This document shows positions 17,763 to 60,755 of a stretch of 64,000 nucleotides of DNA, in pieces (within the stretch, counting starts at the first letter, position 1; each line of letters starts with the position of its first letter). Source of the stretch: Candidatus Heimdallarchaeota archaeon (GTDB lineage: Archaea > Asgardarchaeota > Heimdallarchaeia > Hodarchaeales > Hodarchaeaceae); the NCBI GenBank assembly GCA_011364965.1, contig RDOB01000004.1, positions 392,769 to 456,768 of the forward strand, written 5' to 3'. The position numbers were made by a program, and so were the translations under genes. The notes beneath the pieces are model-generated. The model saw nothing but the letters and a program-made list of their open reading frames with translations, did not search any database and had not been told where the DNA came from.

Positions 17763-19934
17763 TTACGGATTTTTATACCTATCTAGAGATAAAGGATCTA
17801 TATGAGCAAGGTTATATTGCTCTTGGAGAGCTTTTACAGCGGGTTGTTTTTGAATCAGCTTGATGTCTGAAACTAATTCAGGTTTTAGATGAAATTCATT
17901 TGATTTCATAAGTGTGACTTCTCCATTTACAGAAATAATAAATCTTCTTTCATCAGGTTTTATTTTCAAAAGACTCTTTAAATGTTCATAATTCTCAAGG
18001 GATATACCTAATAGGGTTGACACTGCTCTTGGATCATGTTTAGTATAAAAAAATACCATTACACCAGCATTAGAAAGCATCGATTGATCTACCACTGGAT
18101 CTGTCCCAATAAAAATCATTGAAACATCGTATGCTCTTAATGTCCAAGGTCCACGGGCTATCATGGATCCTGATGATTTTGTATATGAATGAGGAGCTGG
18201 TATAAGTTTTTGTATCTCATCTAAAATAAAAATATTCTTTGGAAGCCCTTCTTCTTTGAATGATAATCGAGAAATGCGTAAAAAATAATATAAATATTGA
18301 AAAACTATATCTAAAAAAATTTGTCGTCCTTTTTGATCTTCCATGGCTTCAAAAGCTGATAAATCAATGATTACATTTTCCTCAATTAATTTAGTAATCG
18401 CAAAAGTTGTTTCTTTGACGCATAGACATCTCCCAATGTTTCCAAACATAAGTTTTTCTACTCGGTTTAGTACACTAGCAGAGGTACTCTCAATATAGGC
18501 GCCTCTCATATTAACCTTTTCGGGATACTCAATAAAGTGTGTAAAATCCTTAAAATTTCCCTCTTGGTTGATTGTTCTAATTATCGCTAAACGCAATAAC
18601 TGTCTCATTTGAGGTGAAACTTTATCTTGATTATCATCAAAAATTTGTTCAAAAACAGAGATAACAAAGTGAATGTGATCTTCTTTGTCAATAATGTACT
18701 CACCTTGATCATTTTTGGGGATTTGGAAAACATTAATACCCCATGGAAATGAAGTCGATCCTGGTTTTAAAAAAGAAAAATCTTTGCAGAATGTGGAAAT
18801 CGGGAATAGATATTCTCCTTTTGGATCGAAAATTAAGAATTTTGAGCTTTGGGTATAAAATTCTCGAATTAAACCGAAAATAAATCTACTTTTCCCCTCT
18901 CCAGTCATCCCAAAAACTGCGATGTGTCTACATAGATCCTTTCCATTTATTGTTAATTGCTCATCTGATGTTTTGCCACTAAAAATGGGGATGCCGATAT
19001 TAATTGACTGTCTCATGTTCTGTGAAAAAACCCGAGTTGAAAGTTGATATCGTGATTTGTGGGGAATAAGTGAATAACCATTCTTGGTAAATTGCCTTTG
19101 CGGAGGACTGATATACGACATTAAAGAAAAACCATCAACAACAATGGGTAACACTAATTTTCTTTTCCGACAAATGTTCATGAAAGAAGAAATTCGATTC
19201 CAAAATGATGGATAAACTTTACTGGACAGACCATACGATGAGAAAATAACTGTAATCCTTTCTATTTTCGATCTTAAAATTTCTGAATCAGTTTCCACTA
19301 AAATGATACGGGGAGAAAACTCAAAACAACCTAATTCATTCATTATATCTTCTATTGTCGTATTATAATGCCTATCTATCCTTCCTTCTTGGATATTGAA
19401 CTTAATCTGAGTTATCCTTGGCTCTTCAGGTAAAAATTCCTTCGGAATTTTCTTTTTTGATCTGAAAATAAATTGGATGAAAGCAAAATGGGGGGAATCA
19501 GTGAGAATTTCTAATAAAGCTTCCGAAAAATTGATTGTTGTACTCAATGGCAATTTAATATCATATGAACGTCCTATTAGTCCCCCAGTAAAGAATTGTT
19601 CCCTTTCTGGATCCAAAGCAAACTTATTTTGTAAGATATTCAGAACAATAGAAATTGGGTAGTTTCCCAAGCTTTGAAAGTCTGGATGTAACCCTAAATC
19701 AGTAAGAAATTGCTTTATGCTAGCAAAACCATGAGTATCTCTATTTTTTTTCAGGATTCCTTTTGTATTACAGGTTATAGTCACATATATCGCGTCTGGA
19801 GAGAATATGGAATATTCAAGACTAAAGGTGGAATGAGATGCTTTCAATGCTTGAATTGCGTTGATTTTGGCGTTTTCTGGAATGTAATCGAGGAAAACTG
19901 CTTCAGCACTATAATCCATAAAACCATCACACAT
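17763..19934 (-). CDS. HerA/VirB4-like (DUF87) P-loop ATPase
   Basis: RHIAVFGMTGEGKS, LIFDPKGEY, GINVF, VIIDLS, FILDEIQ. Confidence 0.85.
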   Translation of the reverse strand: MCDGFMDYSAEAVFLDYIPENAKINAIQALKASHSTFSLEYSIFSPDAIYVTITCNTKGILKKNRDTHGFASIKQFLTDLGLHPDFQSLGNYPISIVLNILQNKFALDPEREQFFTGGLIGRSYDIKLPLSTTINFSEALLEILTDSPHFAFIQFIFRSKKKIPKEFLPEEPRITQIKFNIQEGRIDRHYNTTIEDIMNELGCFEFSPRIILVETDSEILRSKIERITVIFSSYGLSSKVYPSFWNRISSFMNICRKRKLVLPIVVDGFSLMSYISPPQRQFTKNGYSLIPHKSRYQLSTRVFSQNMRQSINIGIPIFSGKTSDEQLTINGKDLCRHIAVFGMTGEGKSRFIFGLIREFYTQSSKFLIFDPKGEYLFPISTFCKDFSFLKPGSTSFPWGINVFQIPKNDQGEYIIDKEDHIHFVISVFEQIFDDNQDKVSPQMRQLLRLAIIRTINQEGNFKDFTHFIEYPEKVNMRGAYIESTSASVLNRVEKLMFGNIGRCLCVKETTFAITKLIEENVIIDLSAFEAMEDQKGRQIFLDIVFQYLYYFLRISRLSFKEEGLPKNIFILDEIQKLIPAPHSYTKSSGSMIARGPWTLRAYDVSMIFIGTDPVVDQSMLSNAGVMVFFYTKHDPRAVSTLLGISLENYEHLKSLLKIKPDERRFIISVNGEVTLMKSNEFHLKPELVSDIKLIQKQPAVKALQEQYNLAHIDPLSLDRYKNP

Positions 19935-49754: not shown

Positions 49755-50746
49755 TCACTCAATACCAATCACTATTCGTCCTTTAGCATGGCCTGTTTCG
49801 TAATGGCGGTGTGCCTCAGATACTTTACTTAAAGGATAGACTGTATCAATCACTGGTACAATTTTACCCTCCTCAATCCATTGACGAATTTGTTCCATAG
49901 CTGTGGCACTCTCATCTGCTGTTCCTGATTTTAATCTCTTAATCCCTGTAATCATATGGAAAAGAGACCTTGGATTAGTTACGGGATTATTGGAGACAAA
50001 GACTCCCGTTTCTGTAAGAATATTCTTACATTTCGACAGATTAGATGCTCCTATGGTATCAAAAATTATATCATACTTGATTTCCCCCTTAGTGTAATCT
50101 TCCTTCGCATAATCTATAACAAAGTCTGCTCCAATGGATTTTACCATATCCATATTTGTAGGGCCACATACTCCAGTAACTTCCGCACCATATACATTTT
50201 TAGCCATTTGAACGGCAAAAGTTCCAATTCCTCCAGAAGCACCAATAATTAAAACTTTATCCCCTTCTTTCGGGGTCGCTAGATCTCTAAACGCAATTAA
50301 TGCCGGTGTAGAACCACCTGGGACTGCTGCAGCTTCTTGAAAGGTTAAATTTTTAGGTTTCTTTGCAAGAATATCTGAAGGAACACACAAATATTTCGCG
50401 TATGCCCCTCCAGTTTCGGAGAAACCATAAACCTGATCTCCGATTTTCCAATCGGTTATCTCTTCACCCACAGCTACAATTTCTCCAACAAATCCTAAGC
50501 CTGGAACTCTCATCCTTGGTTTTCTAATTCCAGTAAGCCCTATTCGCAAAAAGGAGTAGTAATCTGTCTCATCGGTGAGAAAATTGCTTTAGGAGCTTTA
50601 CCGCTCCTATAAAGTATATCTCCTGTGTTAATTGATGAACCATAGTTACGAATTAAGACTTCCCTATCTTTTGGACGTGGTTGTTCTATTTCTGCTAACT
50701 CAAGGACATTTGGTGACCCAAACTTTCTCTGTACAATTGCTTGCAT
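49755..50746 (-). pseudogene. MDR-family NAD(P)-dependent oxidoreductase split by a 1-nt frameshift
   Basis: MQAIVQRKFGSPNVL N-terminus and GASGGIGT...GHAKGRIV C-terminus join as TPFLRIG if the A5 run at 50548-50552 has one more base. Confidence 0.85.
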
Positions 50747-50759
50747 CGTATAAGTATCC

Positions 50760-51809
50760 TTAACTAGCTGAAGAATGGTTTCCTTCCTCAAGCAATCCAT
50801 AGAGCTTGATATTCCTGGAAATTGTACTGAAAATATCAACAAGTCCCGCAAGAACTCCTAGTACCGCAAAAAATAGTAAAATGTTTTCCGATAATGGTAA
50901 AACTTCAAGAAGCAAGTGGAGATTTACCAAAACGTACAAACTTAAACCCAAGTCCACCACCCCTCCAATAAGCAGGATAATATTCATGTTGAGATGGAAT
51001 TTCATATCATCTGTTCTTATTTTCGCCAAATTAGTGATTCCAACAATTACTGAGACTATTCCCATGATAACCAATAATGTTTGCAATTCTACCGAAATAC
51101 TGACAAGTTCGGTGCTAAAAGCTGACGGATCGGAACCAACCAATCCAATGATAAATCCCACGATAATTCTGAACAGATTCAATAAATCAATTGGTAATAT
51201 AATGATAATTAAACCAAAAAAGATACCTAATATCCCACTAAGTACAAATTCATCAGGTTTATAATACTGCGATTTAGGGTCTTCTTCCTTATCAGCTTTT
51301 TTATCCTCATCCAGCACCAGATCCTTCGGGAAATAACCTTCATCAGATAAACCAACGAAGATGGCTATTACCACCAGTATGAATGTAATTATAACAGGAT
51401 AAGAGGTTGTTAGCGTATTAGCTACAGCCTGTTGAAGATTGTTAGGTTCAACAATAACTATTTGAACAATCATAATCAAACCGAATAAAATAGCAATAAG
51501 ATACAAATTCACTTTCATATAAATGGACCATAATTCCTCCGAAATGAAATATTTGGGATTTCCCCGCTTTTTATAATTTCTTGCGATCTCTTTAGGATTC
51601 CCGAGGCGAGTGATCGCTTCTTGAACGCTGGCTGTATTGGGTTCTTCTGATCCAGCAATTTCTTGAGCGCTATCCCAGATATGGGAGCTAATTTCTAGCA
51701 TAATATCGTCTAATTTTTCCTCATTGCTTTTGAGCCAATCTGGTAAATGTTTCTTAATTTCCTTGAGGAAATTCTCTACTAGTTTTTCGTTTTCTAATGT
51801 CATTTTCAA
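50760..51809 (-). CDS. HAAS-domain membrane protein (PadR-associated)
   Basis: FLKEIKKHLP...EISSHI...AITRLGNPKEIARNY followed by about 6 TM segments. Confidence 0.75.
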   Translation of the reverse strand: MKMTLENEKLVENFLKEIKKHLPDWLKSNEEKLDDIMLEISSHIWDSAQEIAGSEEPNTASVQEAITRLGNPKEIARNYKKRGNPKYFISEELWSIYMKVNLYLIAILFGLIMIVQIVIVEPNNLQQAVANTLTTSYPVIITFILVVIAIFVGLSDEGYFPKDLVLDEDKKADKEEDPKSQYYKPDEFVLSGILGIFFGLIIIILPIDLLNLFRIIVGFIIGLVGSDPSAFSTELVSISVELQTLLVIMGIVSVIVGITNLAKIRTDDMKFHLNMNIILLIGGVVDLGLSLYVLVNLHLLLEVLPLSENILLFFAVLGVLAGLVDIFSTISRNIKLYGLLEEGNHSSAS

Positions 51810-51820
51810 TTCTCCTAATG

Positions 51821-52357
51821 TTAAGTACTTAGCTTAAATCCACAAATTTCACAGTATTGAGCATCTTTCTCCGAATACTCAATTCTAGTCTTACAGTTCT
51901 GGCAAAAAATATATTTTTCATCATTCAAGATGATTTGGAAATCAGTTATCGCTGAGATTGCTTCAAGTAGTTTGAGGAAAAACCCCTCTAAATGGGACAA
52001 CACTCTTGCACCTTCCTCTGTAAGATAGTAATATTTTCTAGGGCGATCTCCCTCAATATGTTTATATGATTGAACTAAAGAAAGCTCACTATTTTTTGAT
52101 TGCCATTTCTCAAGATTTCTCAATAGTGGATAGAGAGTGCCTTCTTTAATAATCAACATATCATTTGTTAACTCCTTGAGATCTTTGAGGAGTTGATATC
52201 CATACACCCCAGTTTTTCCATGTTTTTTAACTACCTTAAGAATACAGATCTTACCTATTCCGCGTAATAGATCACTTTCAAAGTTTTCCAAAAATTTACG
52301 ATGAGCTTCAGACTCTATTACGGTAGATAAGTCGTTACCTTTGATGTTATTAATCAA
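51821..52357 (-). CDS. PadR-family regulator with C-terminal zinc ribbon
   Basis: YGYQL, EGTLYPLL, PRKYYYLTEEG; CQNC...CEICG. Confidence 0.9.
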   Translation of the reverse strand: MINNIKGNDLSTVIESEAHRKFLENFESDLLRGIGKICILKVVKKHGKTGVYGYQLLKDLKELTNDMLIIKEGTLYPLLRNLEKWQSKNSELSLVQSYKHIEGDRPRKYYYLTEEGARVLSHLEGFFLKLLEAISAITDFQIILNDEKYIFCQNCKTRIEYSEKDAQYCEICGFKLST

Positions 52358-52370
52358 AATGTATCACCTA

Positions 52371-52421
52371 CAATACTGTATTTACAATTATACTGTATCT
52401 GATACAATACTATATTACATA
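52371..52421. promoter_or_regulatory. Three ATACT(G/A)TAT repeats at 17-bp period upstream of padR
   Basis: Cores at 52373, 52390 and 52407; includes the TGTATC-T-GATACA palindrome. Confidence 0.6.
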
Positions 52422-52718
52422 TTTATACTTTTGCATTTCGTCATTAAGTGCTTTTCTAACGAAGCACCCCTCGGATTCTAAACCAGATGTTGTGAACACC
52501 TATTCTGTGGCTTCTCTATCTAACGAGGGTTGCTACAAAAAAATCTCGGTTTCCCCACTATTCGGAAAGGATCTACCTTAATATTCACCTGTCGGTTAAT
52601 CTGAAAAATTTCAAGTTAAGAAAACAATTAATGATGCTAAAAAAAGAATATTTTAAAGAAAATAATGATAAATGATAGAAAAACCACAAATCCTGACATT
52701 TGGTTAACGTTCTGTCAG

Positions 52719-53669
52719 TCAACAGTGGTTCTGAGGTTTTCTTTGAATATACCTCAAGAAGAGGTTATGAAGATGTTGCAAACCATGAGATTCAAGAGTA
52801 ACCATTGTTAAAAGGACAAAAGCACTTCCAATAAGAATCCAAGCAGAATAAGTTATTCTTAAAAAGACTATTTCATAAGAAAAGGGCACGAGGATCTGTA
52901 AGAGTAAATAGAATGCAGTATTAACTGCTCCCATTTTAGATAAGGCATATTGGTACAATCCAAATGTGATAATTGATCCAAAAATCCCTAGAAAGAGGAA
53001 AATAGGAAGAACATTTAATATGATGTCAGTCGGAGGTGGGGCTAAAAAAAAGGATAATACAAAGAGAGGGAGAAATGTATAGATAAGACTTGCATAGAGA
53101 AAACTGAGATAATCAAAGGTACCAGTCTGTAATCGCATATCAGTCATAAATTTATCAGTTAATACTATATTTAATCCCCAAGAAACAGCTGCAACCAACA
53201 AGTATAATGTGCCAATACTGGTGATATTTGAAAAATTATTCCAGTCACCATTATATGAAATAAAAAACATTCCCACTAATGCTAAAAATGCAAGGAAGAT
53301 TATTTCTTTAGAAAGGTTGCTGTGCTTAAGTTTCCAAGTCATAAAAGGCACCATCATAACATAACTGGTAGATAACAGAGTAGCTAACCCCGCAGTGGTT
53401 AAATTTTGGCCAATGGTGGATGATAAATACCCCATAGATATCAAAAATCCAATAACCATAATAGTAGGAGTTTTTAAATAAAGAAGTCCATTTCTATGTT
53501 GTATTTTAGGAATAAACACGCTCATGACTAAAACAGCAATACCAAAACGCATGGTCATGATGAATAATGGGGTACAAGAATCTAAGGCTACACCCACGAA
53601 AATGGGTGCAACCCCCCAAAGAAAGGAACTAGTAAGCATGGCTAATTGAGCACGAGTCATAAATGGCAT
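52719..53669 (-). CDS. DMT/EamA-family transporter
   Basis: LWG, RF, two EamA repeats, about 10 TM segments. Confidence 0.88.
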   Translation of the reverse strand: MPFMTRAQLAMLTSSFLWGVAPIFVGVALDSCTPLFIMTMRFGIAVLVMSVFIPKIQHRNGLLYLKTPTIMVIGFLISMGYLSSTIGQNLTTAGLATLLSTSYVMMVPFMTWKLKHSNLSKEIIFLAFLALVGMFFISYNGDWNNFSNITSIGTLYLLVAAVSWGLNIVLTDKFMTDMRLQTGTFDYLSFLYASLIYTFLPLFVLSFFLAPPPTDIILNVLPIFLFLGIFGSIITFGLYQYALSKMGAVNTAFYLLLQILVPFSYEIVFLRITYSAWILIGSAFVLLTMVTLESHGLQHLHNLFLRYIQRKPQNHC

Positions 53670-54269
53670 AATAATAACAAAGGAAAAAAAGTATTAGTAT
53701 TTATACCAATGCTTCTGCCAATCTCAAGCTTGAACATGGTTAACTTATTTGCTAATACACTAAAACGAAAACTCTTATTCAAGAAGATCCTTACTGCGAT
53801 CAGAGTTTTTAAAAAAAAGATAGGACGAGCTAATTGGTTAGCAACAAAGACAACTGAATACCTAGTTAATCGAAACAATTCGTACCTTAAAGAAAGGTAA
53901 TTCTGGGTTAAACTGGCAATATAGAGAAAATAATTTTATTAAAACAGAAGTATAATGAAATATAATGTGATCAGAATGGATGAAAATGACATATTACTCG
54001 CTGGATTTAAAGGAAATCTTCTTGAAGGAATTTTGGCCGTAATTGGTGCTTTCATTCTTGAATTTGTAATGAATTCATCAGTTACTTATCACCAGAGAAA
54101 TCAATAATATTTAATTATATTTCGGATGAGAGAAAGAGGAACAGGGACTTATTTTAAATGTGGAATCAGCAATATGTGTCATAATTACCTCGTCAGATGT
54201 GAAACTAGAACTTATGCATTTTCCCTATGGTTACCCCTCCTGTGGAGAGATAATATCTTTATACACTAT

Positions 54270-54671
54270 TCAGGGAAACAAGGGAACTAAATAGAATTGA
54301 TAGACGGCCTGCGCGAGGATCGCACAAATTATTGCAATGCTAAAACTGGACAGGGTTCCAATAAGGTAATACTCAGCAAAATCCTGTTTTTCAAGTTGTT
54401 TAAATCGAGCCATGGATTTGGCAGCTAAAACAAAAGAAATAGCACTATACTGATTTAGCAGGCCGAGTGTGAGGATGATGGTTCGTTCTAAAATCCCAAC
54501 AATAATCCCTGCTCCATGTATTCCCTCAGTTGGAGTTACAGATTCTGATTTTTTGTTGGTTCGTAAAACCTTCAAAATTAAACCTACGACTAATATACCC
54601 CCCCCAACCACAATTAGATAAACTCCCAGTAAATAAATTGCCACTATTTCTATTGGTACCATACGGTTCAC
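54270..54671 (-). CDS. Membrane protein of the SatD-associated (DUF3307-like C-terminal) family
   Basis: AGIIVGILER...LAAKSMARF...AEYYLIGTLSS. Confidence 0.8.
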   Translation of the reverse strand: MNRMVPIEIVAIYLLGVYLIVVGGGILVVGLILKVLRTNKKSESVTPTEGIHGAGIIVGILERTIILTLGLLNQYSAISFVLAAKSMARFKQLEKQDFAEYYLIGTLSSFSIAIICAILAQAVYQFYLVPLFP

Positions 54672-54683
54672 ACTGTTGGATGT

Positions 54684-55007
54684 TTAATAGGGATATACAA
54701 GATGATTCAAGGTATGAATCCCCATTGAAGCAGACTCCCATTGTGCACTTTTAAGAATATTGTAAACGGCCTGTTTAGTAATGAATTTTTCAGCTGTCGA
54801 TTTGAGCAGTTCCCCAATTTTTTCATAGGTAAGACCCTGACGTCTATGCTGGATCACTTCCCTCTGTCTTTCAGTTCAGCTAGACTTGATGGTTTCAAGC
54901 AAAATCCAACTAGTATTGACAAGAAGATCAAATTGAGTCGAAGTGGATTGTACCAAAAGAACATAATTATTCTCTTTAGCATATTGTGTAAGGTTTATAT
55001 TAGTCAA
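54684..55007 (-). pseudogene. 5'-truncated satD-family pseudogene (HTH half)
   Basis: SS*TERQREVIQHRRQGLTYEKIGEL...TKQAVYNILKSAQW aligns with KQWTNTQREVIDQRKKQLTYQEIGEL...SKQAINNILRSAKW of the 55190 ORF. TGA 54876-54878 replaces Trp. Confidence 0.85.
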
Positions 55008-55023
55008 TTAAATTCGATTGACT
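55002..55023. promoter_or_regulatory. Palindromic operator 1 (AGTCAAT-N8-ATTGACT)
   Basis: Perfect 7-bp arms; a second copy lies at 55112. Confidence 0.65.
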
Positions 55024-55111
55024 TGGCGAGAAATTTCTAATAAAATGACATTTCCAGTTTAAAAAATTATTTACAGTCAAGAAATATGATATTATATATA
55101 CAATACGAACA

Positions 55112-55133
55112 AGTCAATATTTAAATATTTACT
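55112..55133. promoter_or_regulatory. Palindromic operator 2 (AGTCAAT-N8-ATTTACT)
   Basis: Same arms and spacing as the 55002 site, one mismatch. Confidence 0.6.
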
Positions 55134-55189
55134 AACGAAAAAAATATAAAAGATGCTTCTTTCAAAAGAATCAGTGGATGTGAGAATTA

Positions 55190-56161
55190 GTGTATATTAT
55201 CATGACAGGCGATATCGTGAAATCAAGGAAAATTAAAAATCGAGTTGACGCACAACATCAATTGAAAAAGACTCTACAAACAATTAATCAAGAATACAAA
55301 TTGCAATTAGAAGCCCCGTTTGTAATTGTTTGGGGAGATTCGTTTCAAGGGGCAATTAAATCATTCAAATACACCTATGAAATATTAGAATCGATTTCTG
55401 AGCTTTTTCCGTATAAATTTCGATGTGGAATCGGAATCGGGGATATTTCAACCAGTTTTTCTACTAATGTATTAGAAATCGATGGTGAAGCGTTATTTAA
55501 TTCAAGATTTTCTTTAAAAGTGGCTACAGTATATAAGCTTGATTTCTGGATTCATTCTCCGAATATGGCATTCAATAAAACCTTGAACACGTTATTCTTA
55601 TTACTGTATACATTAACTAAACAATGGACGAATACTCAACGAGAAGTAATTGATCAACGAAAAAAGCAATTAACATATCAAGAGATCGGAGAACTACGAG
55701 GTGTTTCTAAGCAGGCGATTAATAATATTTTACGAAGCGCGAAGTGGCCTCAAATAGAATTGGCAAAACGATTACTTAGGTCAATAGATATCAATGATTT
55801 CAAAGATTCTAAGACAAATCTAGAAGAATTAATCTCTACCTCTTCCTTAGATTGGGACGAAACAAAAGAAATGAATGGTTTTGAATTTCATAATTGGTTA
55901 AGCGAAAAATTCGATATTCTCATGCTATCGACAACTCGTGATGGTGGATTAGATGGTATTCTTAGTACGGGTATTCCATGCCAAGTAAAGAAGGGGCATG
56001 TGGGACCGAAATCAGTTAGAGATTTTGCGTCTGTATTAAATGATTTAGAATCAAAAAAGGGGATTATTTTTGGAAAATCATTTTCAGAGGAGGCTAGAAA
56101 ATATTCTGTTTTTAAATTAAAGGATCAAGGTATAGAGATCAAGCTAATTGAATTTCAATAA
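55190..56161 (+). CDS. SatD-family protein fused to C-terminal Mrr-like restriction endonuclease domain
   Basis: MTGDIVKSR, WGDSFQG, RCGIGIG, DGEA (SatD); HTH; GFEFHNW...RDGGLDG...CQVKK..VGPKSVRDF...KGII...FSEEA (Mrr_cat-like). Confidence 0.82.
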   Translation: MYIIMTGDIVKSRKIKNRVDAQHQLKKTLQTINQEYKLQLEAPFVIVWGDSFQGAIKSFKYTYEILESISELFPYKFRCGIGIGDISTSFSTNVLEIDGEALFNSRFSLKVATVYKLDFWIHSPNMAFNKTLNTLFLLLYTLTKQWTNTQREVIDQRKKQLTYQEIGELRGVSKQAINNILRSAKWPQIELAKRLLRSIDINDFKDSKTNLEELISTSSLDWDETKEMNGFEFHNWLSEKFDILMLSTTRDGGLDGILSTGIPCQVKKGHVGPKSVRDFASVLNDLESKKGIIFGKSFSEEARKYSVFKLKDQGIEIKLIEFQ

Positions 56162-56417
56162 TGAGTAGTTTTGATAGATAAATCAACTGAATAAAGTTAA
56201 CGTCTTACCATATAATTAGGTGAGAAGTTCGAGGATTAATACATCTAAAAAGGAGGGAGAAAAATAGAGAAGGAAAGAAGAAGAATTATAATACCTAATA
56301 GGTAGAAAAATCCCATTAATGGCTGAAAGAACCCCAACCAGCGTAAATAATTGTTTATCCCGATTTCTATCTGAGGTAAATTTTGCACCAAGTTGTTAAG
56401 AAATTCTTGAACAAGGA

Positions 56418-56996
56418 TTAAAAATGAATAATGAATTCACAGGTCTTAGCTCCTGAAATAATGGATTGAACCAATTCGATATCGACCGATTGGTAAAGCG
56501 CAGTTTCAAACAATTGTTTATACCAGCCAATAGAGCAATAACAATAGGTCTTGGTTAAAAATTTCTCCTCTGTCTGTTTAACCTGGCCACAGTAACATTT
56601 GTTGTAGCCACCAGTAATCGTATGCGCATCTTTAAGGAGTAATCGGCCACCCCCTATTCCATTCTTGTTCAATTTCTCAAGAAATTCAGGAATGTTGTTA
56701 GATTCTCCCATGAGAGTTTTAACTCGTTTTCGAGTAGTTGTCCCACAACACATTCGTCCACACGATTCCATGATTTTTTGGCCATTCTCGGCTCCAAGTT
56801 CGATTTCCAATCGTTTAATAGCGCCTTTAATCCAGCTAGCTTTGATACGATTATTAGAGGTCGAGGTATATACGTGGGCATCTTTCATAATGCGAAATAC
56901 AACAGTGTTAGACGTTTCTTGTTGCAGGATTTTCGCGAAGCGACCAATTCTGCCTGTTTTAGGGAGTTGACTGAATTCTTGGGTTTTTGGGGACAT
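56418..56996 (-). CDS. Cys-rich V4R-like/DUF6144-type protein
   Basis: CGRMCC, KCYCG, YCYCSIGW, SIISGAKTCEF. Confidence 0.7.
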   Translation of the reverse strand: MSPKTQEFSQLPKTGRIGRFAKILQQETSNTVVFRIMKDAHVYTSTSNNRIKASWIKGAIKRLEIELGAENGQKIMESCGRMCCGTTTRKRVKTLMGESNNIPEFLEKLNKNGIGGGRLLLKDAHTITGGYNKCYCGQVKQTEEKFLTKTYCYCSIGWYKQLFETALYQSVDIELVQSIISGAKTCEFIIHF

Positions 56997-57512
56997 CAGA
57001 TGATCACTTACAAACCGGTTTCAATTACCACAGCACTAATACATTTCAGTTCTATATAATATTTTCTTGAAGTTCTGGATTCGAATTTTTTTTCCTAAAT
57101 GGGGAAATGATAAGCTTATAGAAAAGAAAAAACCAGACTGAGAGAATAATAGGATTTAGGGAGCATTGCCAATCGTTAAGGAGTAAATGAGGAAGATCCT
57201 GAGAATATTCTGGTACCCAAATCCCAGCGATATAAGGGATTGCAGAGATAAAGAAGACTGATCAAGCAAAGAAAAGCAAGGGGATGACGATAAATGCTCC
57301 AACATCCCAGTAGGATGAACGCGCATAGTAGAATAAGAGATCATTAACATAAAATTAGCCATTTAAAGTATACTAGGCAATTAATAGTTTTAAGTTATGA
57401 AAAAACCGTAAATTCAGCTATAATATTTCACACGGGGTCTTCTCTTAATTCTGTTCAAAATTAATAATTAAGGAGAACATCATCAATATAAATCCTCTCT
57501 GGATTGAGACTC

Positions 57513-59018
57513 TCATTTTTGGGAAAAACGATACCCACAGGTAATACAAAAGCTGGAATTCTCGATTCGATTGGTTCCACAAGTTGGACAAAACCTAATA
57601 GGAGAAATAATCTCTTCCTTCATAGCTACAGTAGGAGTTTCAACTTCTATTTCAGGTCTCATTTGTGATTCAGTTCTCAATTGTTGCCTGCAATTCGGAC
57701 ATGATGAAGAATGTTTAGAAAGGATTTGAGAACAGCGGGGACACCGGGAATAACTCCACTGGACAGTGGATTTTCTAAAACGAAGCTCAATGACAAGATA
57801 GTATAAAATAAATCCCCCCATAACGAAACCTACAAAAAAAGTTACAGACGAATATTGCATGCTTTCTTTGACTATAGAATTTAATCCTTTATCCATCAGG
57901 AACGAAATAAATGTCGCAAATACAAGCGATAGCCCTAGAAGGAAGGTAAGAAGAATAGAATTGGGTTGTCGGGGTAAAATTTTTTGAAAGTGAATTCTCT
58001 CTGTCACTAAAGCGATTAAAAATAGACAGAGATAACTGTATAGAAGGATTAGAAAGATATGGTTTTCAGAACTTGATTCGAAAAAACCAAGGATCAATAC
58101 TGGGAGTAAGATAAACCCAAAACAAGCAATAGTTGCCCAAATCAGAAAATTTGAATATGAAAAAGGAGTAGAAATATTAAAATTACAATTAGGGCACCAG
58201 TTTTGTGTAATGAGAAGTTTCTTTGAACAGTGAGGGCACCAGATCTCTTCGTGAATAGGGTTCAAGCGCCATAAGCGTTTAGAAAGCGCTATATGAGGTT
58301 TCACCCATGTGATCATTAATAAAAATACTAATAACTTCTGGAAGAAGGATCTTTCGTTAGAGAGGACTTTAGTATACTTTTGAAGAATCTTAACATATTC
58401 ATTGGTTAGATTAAACGCAAAATTGTCTGCGTTGTGTATTTGCCTCATCTCGTTTATTCCATTACGAGCGATGAGAATATAGTTAATAAAAAGCCAAACG
58501 AGCAATGGAAATTGAAGATCAAATTGACCCCCTCTAAGAGGCGCGAATAAACTAATTACTAAAATTAGGAATAAAATATCTAAAATTATAAGAACTAGGA
58601 AAGATCGATAAAAGGACATTTTTCGGAGAGTTATCCTTTTAAGATGTTTAACTAGTAAGATTTTGTAAATAAGAAATCCCAGCATCCCTTTTCGATCAAC
58701 AGAGGAAAAAGGTTCAGAGAAAAAGCGAGAGGAGATTAATAAGGTAGATTTCTCAAACTTGTTGTTTATCATTGAGGCTTTATCAAGAAAAATCATTTGA
58801 GGAATAGAGGAAGAATAAATTTTGATATCTAGATCTGCTAGTTCTTTTTGTTGAAGGAGCTCCTGAAGGTTCGCAAGAGAGAGGACCTCACTGGGTTCGA
58901 TTATTTCATATTGTATTCGATATAAACGTGCATTTAGGTAGAAATTCACAAACCACATAACAATAGTTGTAATAGCGTATCCTTCAAGAAAAATAATGAA
59001 GTAGTCGATCAGACTCAT
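57513..59018 (-). CDS. Membrane protein with degenerate M48-peptidase-like domain and three double zinc ribbons
   Basis: RQIHNADNFA and KPHIALSKRL echo M48 motifs but HExxH is absent; CPHC/CPNC, CPRC/CPNC, CPTC/CITC. Confidence 0.6.
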   Translation of the reverse strand: MSLIDYFIIFLEGYAITTIVMWFVNFYLNARLYRIQYEIIEPSEVLSLANLQELLQQKELADLDIKIYSSSIPQMIFLDKASMINNKFEKSTLLISSRFFSEPFSSVDRKGMLGFLIYKILLVKHLKRITLRKMSFYRSFLVLIILDILFLILVISLFAPLRGGQFDLQFPLLVWLFINYILIARNGINEMRQIHNADNFAFNLTNEYVKILQKYTKVLSNERSFFQKLLVFLLMITWVKPHIALSKRLWRLNPIHEEIWCPHCSKKLLITQNWCPNCNFNISTPFSYSNFLIWATIACFGFILLPVLILGFFESSSENHIFLILLYSYLCLFLIALVTERIHFQKILPRQPNSILLTFLLGLSLVFATFISFLMDKGLNSIVKESMQYSSVTFFVGFVMGGFILYYLVIELRFRKSTVQWSYSRCPRCSQILSKHSSSCPNCRQQLRTESQMRPEIEVETPTVAMKEEIISPIRFCPTCGTNRIENSSFCITCGYRFSQK

Positions 59019-59529
59019 ATTTTACCCCTGAAGTTCACAAACTGCGTCAAGCTTTATAAACTCTTAGAGAGAAAAAGAAAATCCATTATACTGCTTCTAT
59101 AAATATGAACCATTTTTTTCTATTTTCAACAGCTCTTTCTTAATACGTTTCCCTAGCAAACAGACATTAGATCAAGCAAGAACTGCTGTAATGGAGTATT
59201 AAGAAATACATTTTAAACATATTTTCCTTCATAATTGGCGTTTTTAAGCCATAAAAACTGGAAAAAAGCTGAAAACAAAGATAAAACTTCTTTATGAATA
59301 TTTAGGTAGTAGTTCAAAACGCGCATCATTATGACGCTCACGGGTAGCTAAGGCATTTTTTTGTAAAGACAAGAAGAATTTCCTGAGAGCGCGGGAGATC
59401 AGTTTCAGCATTGAATTCAAAATAATCAAAACTGGTGTCAGGTTCTCCAATAAGGACAATTTTCAAGAGATTTTCATTCTCAGAAGCCTGTTCAAAACAC
59501 TACTTCAGCAGCTTTATTGAAAAATAATT

Positions 59530-59677
59530 TACTTTCAATTATTATTGCTTTAATATATTTCATTCCTTTTGCTATTGGATAAAAATGGAAGAAAAGGAAT
59601 TAATCAAACGATTCGGAGAAGAACATCGAAAATATATTAAAAAAACCCATGTTTTTTCCCATATCGTAAAAATATAA
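59530..59677 (+). pseudogene. C-terminal remnant of an ICMT/PEMT-family methyltransferase
   Basis: MEEKELIKRFGEEHRKYIKK then frameshifted PMFFP. Confidence 0.55.
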
Positions 59678-59753
59678 GAAATTCATGGGATTTCCATTTT
59701 CTAGAGGAGAAAATTGAAAAAACTGTATCTCTGAAAGGCAATAAAAAGAGTTT

Positions 59754-60755
59754 TTAATCATATGGAGTGTGATCATAAGGAAAGGGAATGAGGGGTTTAT
59801 TATCTAGAATATTTTCGATTTCTTCCAAATCTTCTTGAGATAAAGAGAACTGTACGGACTGTGTATTTTCAATGATTTGAGAAGAGGTTGATGCACCTGT
59901 AATCGCAGATGTAATTTGAGGTTGCCGAAGAATCCAAGCTAGAGATAATTGGGATTGATACATCTTAAGTTCTGAAGCTAGGGTTGATAATCTAACTAAT
60001 TTTGATCGAAGATTATTTTTTTCAAGTATTTCTTGAAATCTTTTAGCTCTTTCTTCAGTTTGACCTCCCCGACTAGTAGAAGGGATATTTTTATTATATT
60101 TTCCTGTTAAAATCCCATAATAAAGTGGTGACCAAACCACAATACCCATTTCATAACGTTTGCAAATATCTATTACCTCGTTTTCGATATATCTGTCAAT
60201 CATATTATATCGAGGTTGTTCAACACTTGGCAAAGCCAAATTATGTTCCTTTGCGACACATATTATCCTTTCAAGCTCAGCAGCCGTAAAAATCGATGTC
60301 CCCCAATAATGAATCTTCCCTTGTGTAATCAGATCATCCATAGTACGAACAGTTTCCAAAAGATTAGTCCTTAAATCATATGAATGGCAAAAGTAAATAT
60401 CCAGATAATCTAGAGAAAACCGAGTCAAAGAATTCTCGATTGATTCTTTTATATGTTTTCGGCCTAATCCACGATTATTAACATTTTTACTCATTTCCCA
60501 ATAAACCTTAGAACTAATGACCAAATCTTTTCGTGAAACTACCTCGTCCTTAAGGAAGCTTCCAATAATCTCCTCTGCTTTTCCAGTAGCATATATATCT
60601 GCGCAATCAAAGAAATTGATTCCATTCTCGACAGCTGTTATCATACATTTCTTCGAAGCCTCTTCATCTATACTTTCTCCATAAGTCATCCAAGAGCCCA
60701 AAGCAATTTCACTTAAAAATAATCCTGTACTACCCATGCGTCTATATTTCATCAT
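59754..60755 (-). CDS. Aldo/keto reductase (Kv-beta-like subfamily)
   Basis: LGSWMTYG, FFDCADIY, SSKVYW, DYLDIYFCH, WSPL. Confidence 0.95.
   Translation of the reverse strand: MMKYRRMGSTGLFLSEIALGSWMTYGESIDEEASKKCMITAVENGINFFDCADIYATGKAEEIIGSFLKDEVVSRKDLVISSKVYWEMSKNVNNRGLGRKHIKESIENSLTRFSLDYLDIYFCHSYDLRTNLLETVRTMDDLITQGKIHYWGTSIFTAAELERIICVAKEHNLALPSVEQPRYNMIDRYIENEVIDICKRYEMGIVVWSPLYYGILTGKYNKNIPSTSRGGQTEERAKRFQEILEKNNLRSKLVRLSTLASELKMYQSQLSLAWILRQPQITSAITGASTSSQIIENTQSVQFSLSQEDLEEIENILDNKPLIPFPYDHTPYD

What the first reader, a model, noticed from the sequence alone, without database searches (positions are those of the whole stretch)
54270..56161. SatD cyclase-like / HTH / Mrr-nuclease fusion with a membrane partner: candidate nucleotide-signalling defence system
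Seen: the 323-aa ORF joins a SatD domain, an HTH and an Mrr-like D...QxK nuclease. The SatD motifs (GDIVKS, GDSFQG, RCGIGIG, DGEA) parallel class III nucleotidyl cyclase motifs with both metal-binding Asp residues kept. The divergent strand carries the usual SatD-associated membrane gene. Established: cyclase plus membrane or nuclease effector is the logic of Pycsar and CBASS, and Mrr-type domains cut modified DNA. SatD function is essentially unknown. Inference: SatD loci may be autoregulated second-messenger conflict systems, and this fusion exposes the link to an effector.
Basis: partly seen in the sequence, partly recalled or inferred. Interest (0 to 1): 0.78.

Follow-up and report, generated by a model that had tools for sequence, protein, structure and literature searches.

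The report
Mobile nuclease-armed SatD regulator, Asgard archaeon
An Asgard archaeon carries a rare three-part protein (nucleotide-cyclase-like domain, DNA-binding domain, restriction-type nuclease) whose gene has moved between lineages and each time sits beside, and has replaced the front half of, the resident copy of an uncharacterised regulator–membrane-protein gene pair.

Summary
ORF 55190-56161(+) is SatD (PF16264, 83 bits) plus a sigma70-r4/YlxM-like HTH plus Mrr_cat (above cut-off, D..QxK kept). The predicted N-domain has the cyclase/GGDEF/mCpol palm fold, and both acidic residues (D8, D50) are invariant in a 60-sequence N-domain alignment. The divergent 130-aa membrane gene is the constant SatD partner in Asgard archaea, but it is not DUF3307.

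New here:
- A 5'-truncated resident satD with an in-frame TGA lies between the two genes.
- A GTCAA-N10-TTGAC operator is about 430-fold enriched upstream of canonical and fused satD genes alike.
- The fusion occurs only in a few Hodarchaeales. It is monophyletic, while the adjacent membrane genes are polyphyletic (AU p=4e-26).
- Against one relative, fusion dS is 0.13 while the flanking genes are near saturation.
- All six fusion loci with flanking DNA hold a decapitated resident satD.

Best reading: a horizontally spreading, self-regulated, nuclease-armed SatD that displaces the resident regulator in situ. I found no defence-island context, no receptor domain in the partner and no evidence for a diffusible messenger, so the second-messenger defence reading is only partly supported.

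This scan has noted canonical SatD-DUF3307 cassettes on much other DNA. Its notes on this same stretch already flag the fusion and the satD pseudogene.

The parts
55190..56161 (+). SatD-HTH-Mrr fusion gene (323 aa from GTG; gene callers use the ATG at 55202)
   Evidence: ORF. Pfam SatD 83 bits and Mrr_cat 21.9 bits. AF2 model pLDDT 93.
55190..55579 (+). Palm (cyclase/GGDEF/mCpol-like) domain, aa 1-130, with D8 and D50
   Evidence: Topology is beta-alpha-beta-beta-alpha-beta. Z 12.8 to 2qv6, 12.0 to 5mbg, 11.9 to 3icl and 11.2 to 9mnr. D8, S12, D50, G84 and G99 are invariant in 60 sequences. A sub-threshold profile alignment places the GD of GDSFQG on the GD of Rv1900c and of GCH III.
55580..55801 (+). 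Helical linker and sigma70 region-4/YlxM-like HTH (recognition helix about 55706-55747)
   Evidence: Pfam and NCBIfam HTH hits. PDB profile hits to YlxM-like 1s7o, FliA and GerE.
55802..56158 (+). Mrr-type PD-(D/E)xK nuclease domain, aa 205-323 (E239, D251, D255, Q265, K267)
   Evidence: Mrr_cat 24.7 bits alone, matched by 9 of 10 orthologues. Motif residues conserved, with D255 an E in one sequence. EcoT38I Z 8.0, NucS Z 7.4, AF1548 Z 7.4; Foldseek EndoMS E 1.2e-4. Omega 0.22.
54270..54662 (-). Membrane partner, 130 aa, about 3 hydrophobic segments, invariant LER...AKSMARFKQLE...FAEYYLIGT core
   Evidence: Alignment A3. Hydropathy. Lies immediately downstream of satD in every canonical Asgard locus examined with downstream sequence. 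No Pfam or NCBIfam family.
54684..54986 (-). Remnant of the resident canonical satD (residues about 110-202 only), with an in-frame TGA at 54876-54878 in place of the conserved Trp. The residual 57-aa HTH-only ORF is 54684-54857.
   Evidence: The close relative L030 has TGG at this codon.
55003..55022 (.). Distal operator, a perfect palindrome GTCAA-N10-TTGAC, next to the remnant's 5' edge
   Evidence: The only perfect copy in 64 kb. The motif has 29 hits in 4 kb upstream of 16 satD genes against 3 in 178 kb elsewhere.
55113..55132 (.). Proximal operator (GTCAA-N10-TTTAC), 12 nt upstream of a conserved TATA-like ATATAAAAG (55144-55152)
   Evidence: The position (-66 to -93 from the start codon) is shared with canonical satD genes.

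Best explanation
The locus is a self-regulated accessory (conflict-type) module in which a horizontally spreading, nuclease-armed SatD has displaced the resident SatD in situ.

Shown:
- The protein joins a minimal two-Asp palm domain of the cyclase/GGDEF/mCpol fold, a sigma70-r4-like HTH and an Mrr-type PD-QxK nuclease. All three parts are under purifying selection.
- Its promoter carries the same GTCAA-N10-TTGAC palindromes that precede canonical Asgard satD genes.
- The gene is monophyletic and has been exchanged recently between divergent Hodarchaeales.
- In all six fusion loci with flanking DNA, it sits next to a resident satD-membrane operon whose satD has lost its palm half.

Inferred:
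- The protein binds the operators as a dimer and represses both itself and the divergent remnant-membrane unit.
- The palm domain binds or turns over an NTP and acts as the input switch.
- When the switch flips, the outputs are the small membrane protein (the ancestral output, possibly toxic) and DNA cleavage by the tethered nuclease.
- The HTH-only remnant persists because the membrane gene must stay repressed or translationally coupled.
For: Architecture and folds.

Operator: 29 hits in 4 kb upstream against 3 in 178 kb elsewhere. Arrays are spaced 29 bp apart in canonical loci, and two sites lie about 110 bp apart in fusion promoters.

Obligate pairing with the membrane gene: every canonical Asgard locus with downstream sequence has it. 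In the genus, the 12 genomes (G000 included) with SatD all hold the membrane gene and the 9 lacking SatD all lack it.

Rarity of the fusion: 9 clusters at 90% identity matched beyond the SatD part (8 near full length), a single representative spanning the full length among 1.84 billion representatives at 50% identity, and 2 of 22 species of the genus.

Fusion clade 100/100. The membrane genes beside fusions fall in three clades, and the AU test rejects their monophyly at p=4e-26.

Each remnant is closest to the canonical SatD of its own membrane lineage.

WIN against L030: fusion dS 0.13 (omega 0.14 and 0.22), remnant dS 0.77, membrane pS 0.77. Identity is 92-100% from about 55119 to 56200 and falls to about 40% some 40 nt after the stop codon. 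The neighbouring DUF87 ATPase of L012 is 79% identical to L030's (over the 401 aa held) but only 47% to the window's.

L004 against L007: a 1.79-kb block holding the fusion replaces the intergenic region and the first 142 codons of resident satD.

All six fusion loci with flanking DNA (WIN, L030, L001, L007, L016, L026) hold a truncated remnant plus the membrane gene.
Against: No enzymatic activity, DNA binding or cleavage has been measured. The roles of the palm domain and the membrane protein are inferred from fold and linkage only. The trees rest on short proteins from metagenome-assembled contigs. Ancient paralogy with differential loss can explain part of the tree conflict, but not the dS contrast. 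Nothing in the neighbourhood is a recognised defence or mobile-element gene. A nuclease tethered to an HTH that recognises its own promoter would need tight control, and I cannot show any such control.
Confidence: 0.42

Rival explanations
1. This is the first reader's reading: a second-messenger defence system of the Pycsar/CBASS/Panoptes kind. SatD would make a (cyclic) nucleotide that controls the membrane partner as an effector, and the Mrr domain would be an added effector.
For: Palm fold with both Asp, close to mCpol OptS in size (103 of 119 residues aligned, Z 11.2). A strictly coupled membrane gene. Patchy distribution: 54 of 301 Asgard genomes and 12 of 21 in the genus. Panoptes pairs a minimal polymerase with a TM effector (PMC12657218).
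Against: The partner is 130 aa, mostly hydrophobic, and matches no known family or nucleotide-binding domain. PADLOC gives no significant hit. There is no defence island. The HTH and operator arrays point to a DNA-bound regulator. With the effector fused in cis, a diffusible signal is unnecessary.
Confidence: 0.2
2. This is a selfish, homing-like nuclease gene. The SatD-type HTH would aim the Mrr nuclease at the operator arrays of resident satD promoters. Break repair would then copy the cassette in and delete the 5' half of the resident gene.
For: The fusion sits at the 5' side of resident satD in three membrane lineages, with loss of promoter-proximal codons in each. Transfer is recent. The cassette has a sharp 3' boundary. 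The operator is shared by target and cassette. Canonical promoters carry arrays spaced 29 bp apart, while cassette promoters carry sites about 110 bp apart.
Against: Breakpoints (residues about 74, 110, 119, 139 and 171) and orientation vary. There is no defined target-site junction or terminal repeats. In L007 the block carried part of a donor neighbour gene, in inverted orientation. The cassette's own promoter holds the same sites. The deletions could be later decay of a redundant gene.
Confidence: 0.15
3. This is an ordinary autoregulated transcription factor. The palm domain would be a non-catalytic ligand sensor and the Mrr-like domain a non-cleaving DNA-binding or oligomerisation module.
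For: The HTH and operators are the best-supported functional elements. Degenerate GGDEF and cyclase domains often act as sensors (general knowledge). The Mrr_cat score is only just above the cut-off for the whole protein.
Against: D8 and D50 are invariant in the 60-sequence N-domain alignment and at least 90% conserved across 140 diverse SatDs. E239, D251, Q265 and K267 are invariant, and D255 changes only to E. This reading does not explain the horizontal spread and the displacement of the resident gene.
Confidence: 0.13

Closest known systems
SatD family (Pfam PF16264), named after satD of the Streptococcus mutans sat operon; function unknown
   Same: The N-terminal 200 aa match the family model end to end (83 bits). 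It has the same palm-plus-HTH build, and the same 20-bp palindromes at 29-bp spacing that earlier notes of this scan report for SatD cassettes elsewhere.
   Different: It has an extra C-terminal Mrr-type nuclease, found only in a few Hodarchaeales. The partner is a 130-aa membrane family that is not DUF3307.
Class III adenylyl/guanylyl cyclases, GGDEF diguanylate cyclases and GTP cyclohydrolase III (palm-domain nucleotide enzymes; e.g. 1ybu, 5mbg, 3icl, 2qv6)
   Same: Fold (Z 10-12.8), and an acidic residue at the end of beta-1 and in the beta-2/beta-3 hairpin.
   Different: About 125 aa, shorter than cyclase homology domains. No Pfam Guanylate_cyc or GGDEF hit at E<=1. Substrate-specifying residues and the dimer interface were not assessed. 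It is fused to an HTH.
Panoptes OptS/OptE (mCpol plus S-2TM-beta effector; PMC12657218)
   Same: A minimal palm enzyme of similar size (9mnr, Z 11.2, rmsd 2.3, 103 aligned) encoded with a small membrane protein in a two-gene unit.
   Different: SatD carries an HTH and operator arrays. The partner matches no known family and has no recognisable nucleotide-binding beta-barrel, CARF or SAVED domain. There is no PADLOC hit.
Mrr-type and related modification-dependent restriction endonucleases (Pfam Mrr_cat; AspBHI 4oc8, MspJI 4f0p, AF1548 1y88, EcoT38I 7e8r)
   Same: A DNA-binding domain followed by a PD-QxK catalytic domain, with the D...QxK signature conserved.
   Different: The DNA-binding module is a sigma70-r4-like HTH that probably reads a specific operator, not an Mrr_N winged helix. 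No stand-alone relative of this nuclease domain was found. Dependence on DNA modification is unknown.

Membership tests
SatD (PF16264) | Match to the family HMM above the gathering score | tested here: met
   83 bits against 29, aa 2-174 on profile positions 1-179 of 211.
Nucleotide cyclase / GGDEF / Cas10-mCpol palm superfamily | beta-alpha-beta-beta-alpha-beta palm fold | tested here: met
   Model pLDDT 93. Z 12.8-11.2 to 2qv6, 5mbg, 3icl, 1ab8 and 9mnr. Foldseek top hit 1ybu, E 4e-4.
Nucleotide cyclase / GGDEF / Cas10-mCpol palm superfamily | Two metal-binding acidic residues (end of beta-1; beta-2/beta-3 hairpin) | tested here: met
   D8 and D50 are invariant in 60 N-domains. D50 aligns with the GD of Rv1900c and GCH III in sub-threshold profile alignments. 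No residue-level structural superposition was available.
Nucleotide cyclase / GGDEF / Cas10-mCpol palm superfamily | NTP cyclase or polymerase activity | not testable with these tools
   Needs an enzyme assay.
Class III cyclase (Pfam Guanylate_cyc) or GGDEF as sequence families | Match to the family HMM | tested here: not met
   No such Pfam hit at E<=1. PDB profile hits to 2qv6 and 1ybt are only E 0.27-0.34.
Mrr_cat (PF04471) | HMM match above the cut-off | tested here: met
   21.9 bits against 21 for the whole protein. 24.7 bits for the domain alone, and 9 of 10 orthologues match, best E 2.6e-7.
Mrr_cat (PF04471) | Catalytic D...(Q/E)xK signature on a PD-(D/E)xK fold | tested here: met
   D251, D255, Q265 and K267 are conserved. 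EcoT38I Z 8.0, NucS 7.4, AF1548 7.4. The Z values are modest and the domain model has pLDDT 76.
Mrr-type type IV restriction enzyme | Cleavage of modified DNA; N-terminal Mrr_N winged helix | tested here: not met
   No Mrr_N match; the DNA-binding part is a sigma70-r4-like HTH. Modification dependence cannot be tested here.
DUF3307 (PF11750) for the membrane partner | Match to the family HMM or profile | tested here: not met
   No match in this genome at E<=10. None in the partner or its homologues. 0 of 20 sampled same-genus genomes match. hhalign probability 0.3% against an Asgard PF11750 match (31 bits, L046).
Pycsar / CBASS / Panoptes | Recognised cyclase family plus an effector with a nucleotide-sensing domain | tested here: not met
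   PADLOC gives only capH at E 0.016 on the HTH. The partner is 130 aa with no family match.
Defence island | Known defence genes in the neighbourhood | tested here: not met
   The +-5 kb neighbours are PadR, HAAS, EamA, DUF6144, a zinc-ribbon membrane protein, an aldo-keto reductase and an ADH. PADLOC finds nothing beyond a 19-bit mad2 hit on the ADH.
Homing endonuclease gene | Cleavage of the cassette-free allele and copying into it | not testable with these tools
   Only indirect evidence: the fusion repeatedly lies at the 5' side of resident satD, and transfer was recent.

The most novel reading that the evidence does not exclude
The SatD-HTH-Mrr gene is a new kind of selfish, operator-guided homing nuclease. 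It uses the SatD family's own DNA-reading head to find resident satD promoters, cuts there, and is copied in. That decapitates the resident regulator while keeping its membrane partner, and it spreads in this way among Hodarchaeales.
Probability: 0.15. Interest if true: 0.85.

Novelty: new variant of a known kind. Interest (0 to 1): 0.62.

Why it matters
SatD cassettes are widespread and have no known function. This Asgard variant supplies three handles that can be tested.

- A defined operator (GTCAA-N10-TTGAC) is shared by canonical and fused genes.
- A natural fusion ties the SatD DNA-reading head to a nuclease.
- There is a natural replacement series: in all six fusion loci with flanking DNA the fused gene has ousted the palm half of the resident SatD, while an HTH stub and the membrane gene are kept.

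That pattern argues that the palm domain is the part two copies cannot share, and that the membrane gene must stay under SatD-type control. The locus is also a clear case of recent gene flow and in-situ displacement among Asgard archaea, where mobile and conflict systems are poorly charted.

Tried and rejected
- Complex prediction of the fusion with the membrane partner gave no verdict (score 0.00), so it says nothing about binding.
- No relative of the fusion was found in viral contigs.
- Word-based and genus-wide searches for a stand-alone relative of the nuclease domain found only the fusions themselves, so its origin stays open.
- Literature searches for SatD with 'cyclase', 'GGDEF', 'SatD family', PF16264 and DUF3307 gave nothing useful.
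- The profile of the full family against PDB sequences hit only HTH proteins. The N-domain profile gave only sub-threshold cyclase hits, and the C-domain profile gave nothing meaningful.
- The sigma-70 promoter and terminator scan is not informative for an archaeon.
- I considered reading TGA as Trp in the remnant and rejected it. The long ORFs listed in 50000-60000 are open under table 11, and the close relative L030 has TGG at that codon.
- The within-window count of the operator motif alone is not significant (5 found against 2.2 expected). The evidence for the operator is its enrichment across loci.
Full report
WHAT IS THERE. The 323-aa ORF at 55190-56161(+) and the divergent membrane ORF at 54270-54671(-) exist as described. 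Pfam assigns aa 2-174 to SatD (E 3.1e-23, 83 bits against a cut-off of 29). It assigns aa 246-306 to Mrr_cat (21.9 bits against 21). Weak sigma70-r4/HTH hits fall at aa 147-200. NCBIfam and a family profile against PDB sequences agree on a YlxM/sigma-r4-type HTH. The GTG start is preferred over the ATG four codons later, because canonical homologues begin with the same strand-forming residues.

FOLDS. An AlphaFold2 model built on 140 family members has pLDDT 93.
- Residues 1-125 form a beta-alpha-beta-beta-alpha-beta palm. Foldseek's best PDB hits are class III adenylyl cyclases (Rv1900c, E 4e-4; Ma1120), followed by GGDEF, Cas10 and the Panoptes mCpol OptS.
- VIA-align against 48,161 chains gives GTP cyclohydrolase III Z 12.8, a light-regulated adenylyl cyclase Z 12.0, GGDEF Z 11.9 and mCpol Z 11.2 with 103 of 119 residues aligned.
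- D8 (end of beta-1) and D50 (beta-2/beta-3 hairpin) are invariant in 60 diverse N-domains, as are S12, G84 and G99. A profile of the N-domain alone picks out the same two structural families at sub-threshold E-values. It aligns the GD of GDSFQG and the RxGIGxG strand with their counterparts in Rv1900c and GCH III.
- The cyclase-like fold and the two-Asp site are therefore supported. Activity is not tested.
- The C-terminal 119 aa, modelled alone (pLDDT 76), match restriction-endonuclease-fold proteins. These are EcoT38I Z 8.0, NucS Z 7.4, AF1548 Z 7.4, then AspBHI, MspJI, LlaBIII and FokI, with Foldseek EndoMS at E 1.2e-4.
- On its own the C-domain scores 24.7 bits on Mrr_cat, and 9 of 10 orthologues match. 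E239, D251, Q265 and K267 are invariant, and D255 is E in one sequence.

THE PARTNER IS NOT DUF3307.
- The membrane protein has about three hydrophobic segments and a strictly conserved LER...AKSMARFKQLE...FAEYYLIGT core.
- It has no Pfam or NCBIfam family. PF11750 finds nothing in this genome at E<=10 and nothing in the 20 sampled same-genus genomes. hhalign against an Asgard PF11750 match (31 bits, L046) gives probability 0.3%.
- It is nevertheless the constant SatD partner. In every canonical Asgard locus examined with downstream sequence it follows satD directly, often with overlapping stop and start codons. A distant non-fusion locus (L010) has a homologue in the same place.
- In the window's genus the two genes co-occur perfectly among genomes covered by both searches: the 12 with SatD (G000 included) all have it and the 9 without SatD all lack it.

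A HIDDEN THIRD PART. Between the two genes, on the minus strand (54684-54986), lies the C-terminal half of a second, canonical-type satD.
- It is 53-58% identical to the SatD of related Hodarchaeales over residues about 110-202.
- It has a TGA (54876-54878) where the family has an almost invariant Trp.
- A close relative (L030) has the same truncation but TGG at that codon, so the nonsense change is recent.
- The remnant has evolved under constraint (omega about 0.2 over 74 codons).

OPERATORS.
- The spacer holds a perfect GTCAA-N10-TTGAC palindrome (55003-55022) and a one-mismatch copy (55113-55132). The second lies 12 nt upstream of a conserved TATA-like ATATAAAAG.
- I defined the motif on fusion promoters and then tested it on canonical loci. 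With one mismatch allowed it occurs 29 times in the 250 nt upstream of 16 satD genes and 3 times in the remaining 178 kb of the same loci, about a 430-fold enrichment.
- Canonical promoters carry arrays at 29-bp spacing. Fusion promoters carry two sites about 110 bp apart.
- This matches what earlier notes of this scan report for SatD cassettes in other organisms. It makes autoregulation through the HTH the best-supported functional inference.

RARITY AND HISTORY.
- The fused architecture occurs in 9 clusters at 90% identity that match beyond the SatD part, 8 of them near full length. A single representative spans the full length among 1.84 billion representatives at 50% identity. It is in 2 of 22 species of the genus.
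- SatD itself is patchy: 54 of 301 Asgard genomes, and 12 of 21 in the genus.
- On a SatD tree the fusions are one clade (100/100) on a long stem.
- The membrane genes beside them fall in three different clades, each with canonical relatives. An AU test rejects their monophyly (p=4e-26).
- Each truncated remnant is closest to the canonical SatD of its own membrane lineage.
- L007 differs from its relative L004 (80-88% DNA identity) by a 1.79-kb inverted block. The block holds the fusion and part of a donor neighbour gene. It replaces the intergenic region and the first 142 codons of satD.
- Between the window and L030 the fusion has dS 0.13 (omega 0.14 for SatD-HTH and 0.22 for the nuclease). 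The adjacent remnant has dS 0.77, and the membrane gene is saturated (pS 0.77).
- Identity between the two is 92-100% from about 55119 to 56200 and drops to about 40% some 40 nt after the stop codon. The neighbouring DUF87 ATPase confirms that the two organisms are distant: L012's is 79% identical to L030's (over the 401 aa held) but only 47% to the window's.
- All six fusion loci with flanking DNA (WIN, L030, L001, L007, L016, L026) hold a decapitated resident satD with differing breakpoints, in tandem or divergent orientation. In none is an intact canonical satD seen beside a fusion.

READING. The fusion is a mobile, nuclease-armed xenologue of SatD that takes over resident satD-membrane operons. 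I infer three things.
- It binds the shared operators and autoregulates.
- Its palm domain is the nucleotide-dependent input.
- The membrane protein and the tethered nuclease are the outputs.

The retained HTH stub suggests that the membrane gene must stay under SatD-type control, which is addiction-like logic.

The second-messenger defence model remains possible but has four gaps:
- no receptor domain in the partner;
- no recognised defence genes nearby;
- no viral link;
- no logical need for a diffusible signal when the domains are fused.

A homing-like mechanism would explain why the fusion is repeatedly found at the 5' side of resident satD. It is unproven, and the variable breakpoints and orientations count against it.

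LIMITS.
- All relatives are metagenome contigs or MAGs.
- The proteins are short.
- One match per genome is not a strict copy number.
- No biochemical property has been measured.
- The complex prediction gave no verdict.

Noticed in passing
window 17820-19910 (-); L004, L007, L012, L014, L016, L018, L019, L021, L023-L025, L030, L001: A DUF87/HerA-type ATPase orthologue lies within about 5 kb of the satD-membrane pair in 13 of 16 Asgard loci checked, in varying orientation. It often comes with a 374-aa coiled-coil protein. In this window it is 35 kb away.
   Followed up: partly
window 49755-50851 (-): A zinc-type alcohol dehydrogenase/quinone oxidoreductase is split into a 103-aa N-terminal ORF and a 264-aa ORF that overlap in different frames. 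This looks like a frameshift or a pseudogene.
   Followed up: no
window 50760-52357 (-): A PadR regulator with a C-terminal zinc ribbon is followed by a 349-aa polytopic membrane protein with an N-terminal HAAS domain, i.e. a PadR-HAAS sensor pair.
   Followed up: no
L010 922-1529 (-): In a distant non-fusion locus, a HEPN/nucleotidyltransferase (MNT) toxin-antitoxin-type pair lies 1.5 kb upstream of the SatD-membrane pair.
   Followed up: no
L007 4300-4801 (+) and L016 4707-5789 (+): L007 carries a second, partial and frameshifted copy of the 3' part of a 360-aa zinc-ribbon protein gene. It was co-transferred with the fusion block.
   Followed up: partly
L030 3880-3925 (+), upstream of the fusion: The proximal operator region is tandemly duplicated (AGTCAACATTTATATATT twice) in L030 and L031 relative to the window.
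   Followed up: no
P0029, P0057, P0060, P0068, P0071, P0092 (410-428 aa); P0103, P0131 (about 500 aa): Other SatD architectures exist elsewhere: tandem SatD-SatD proteins, and SatD with an unidentified extension of about 290 aa.
   Followed up: no
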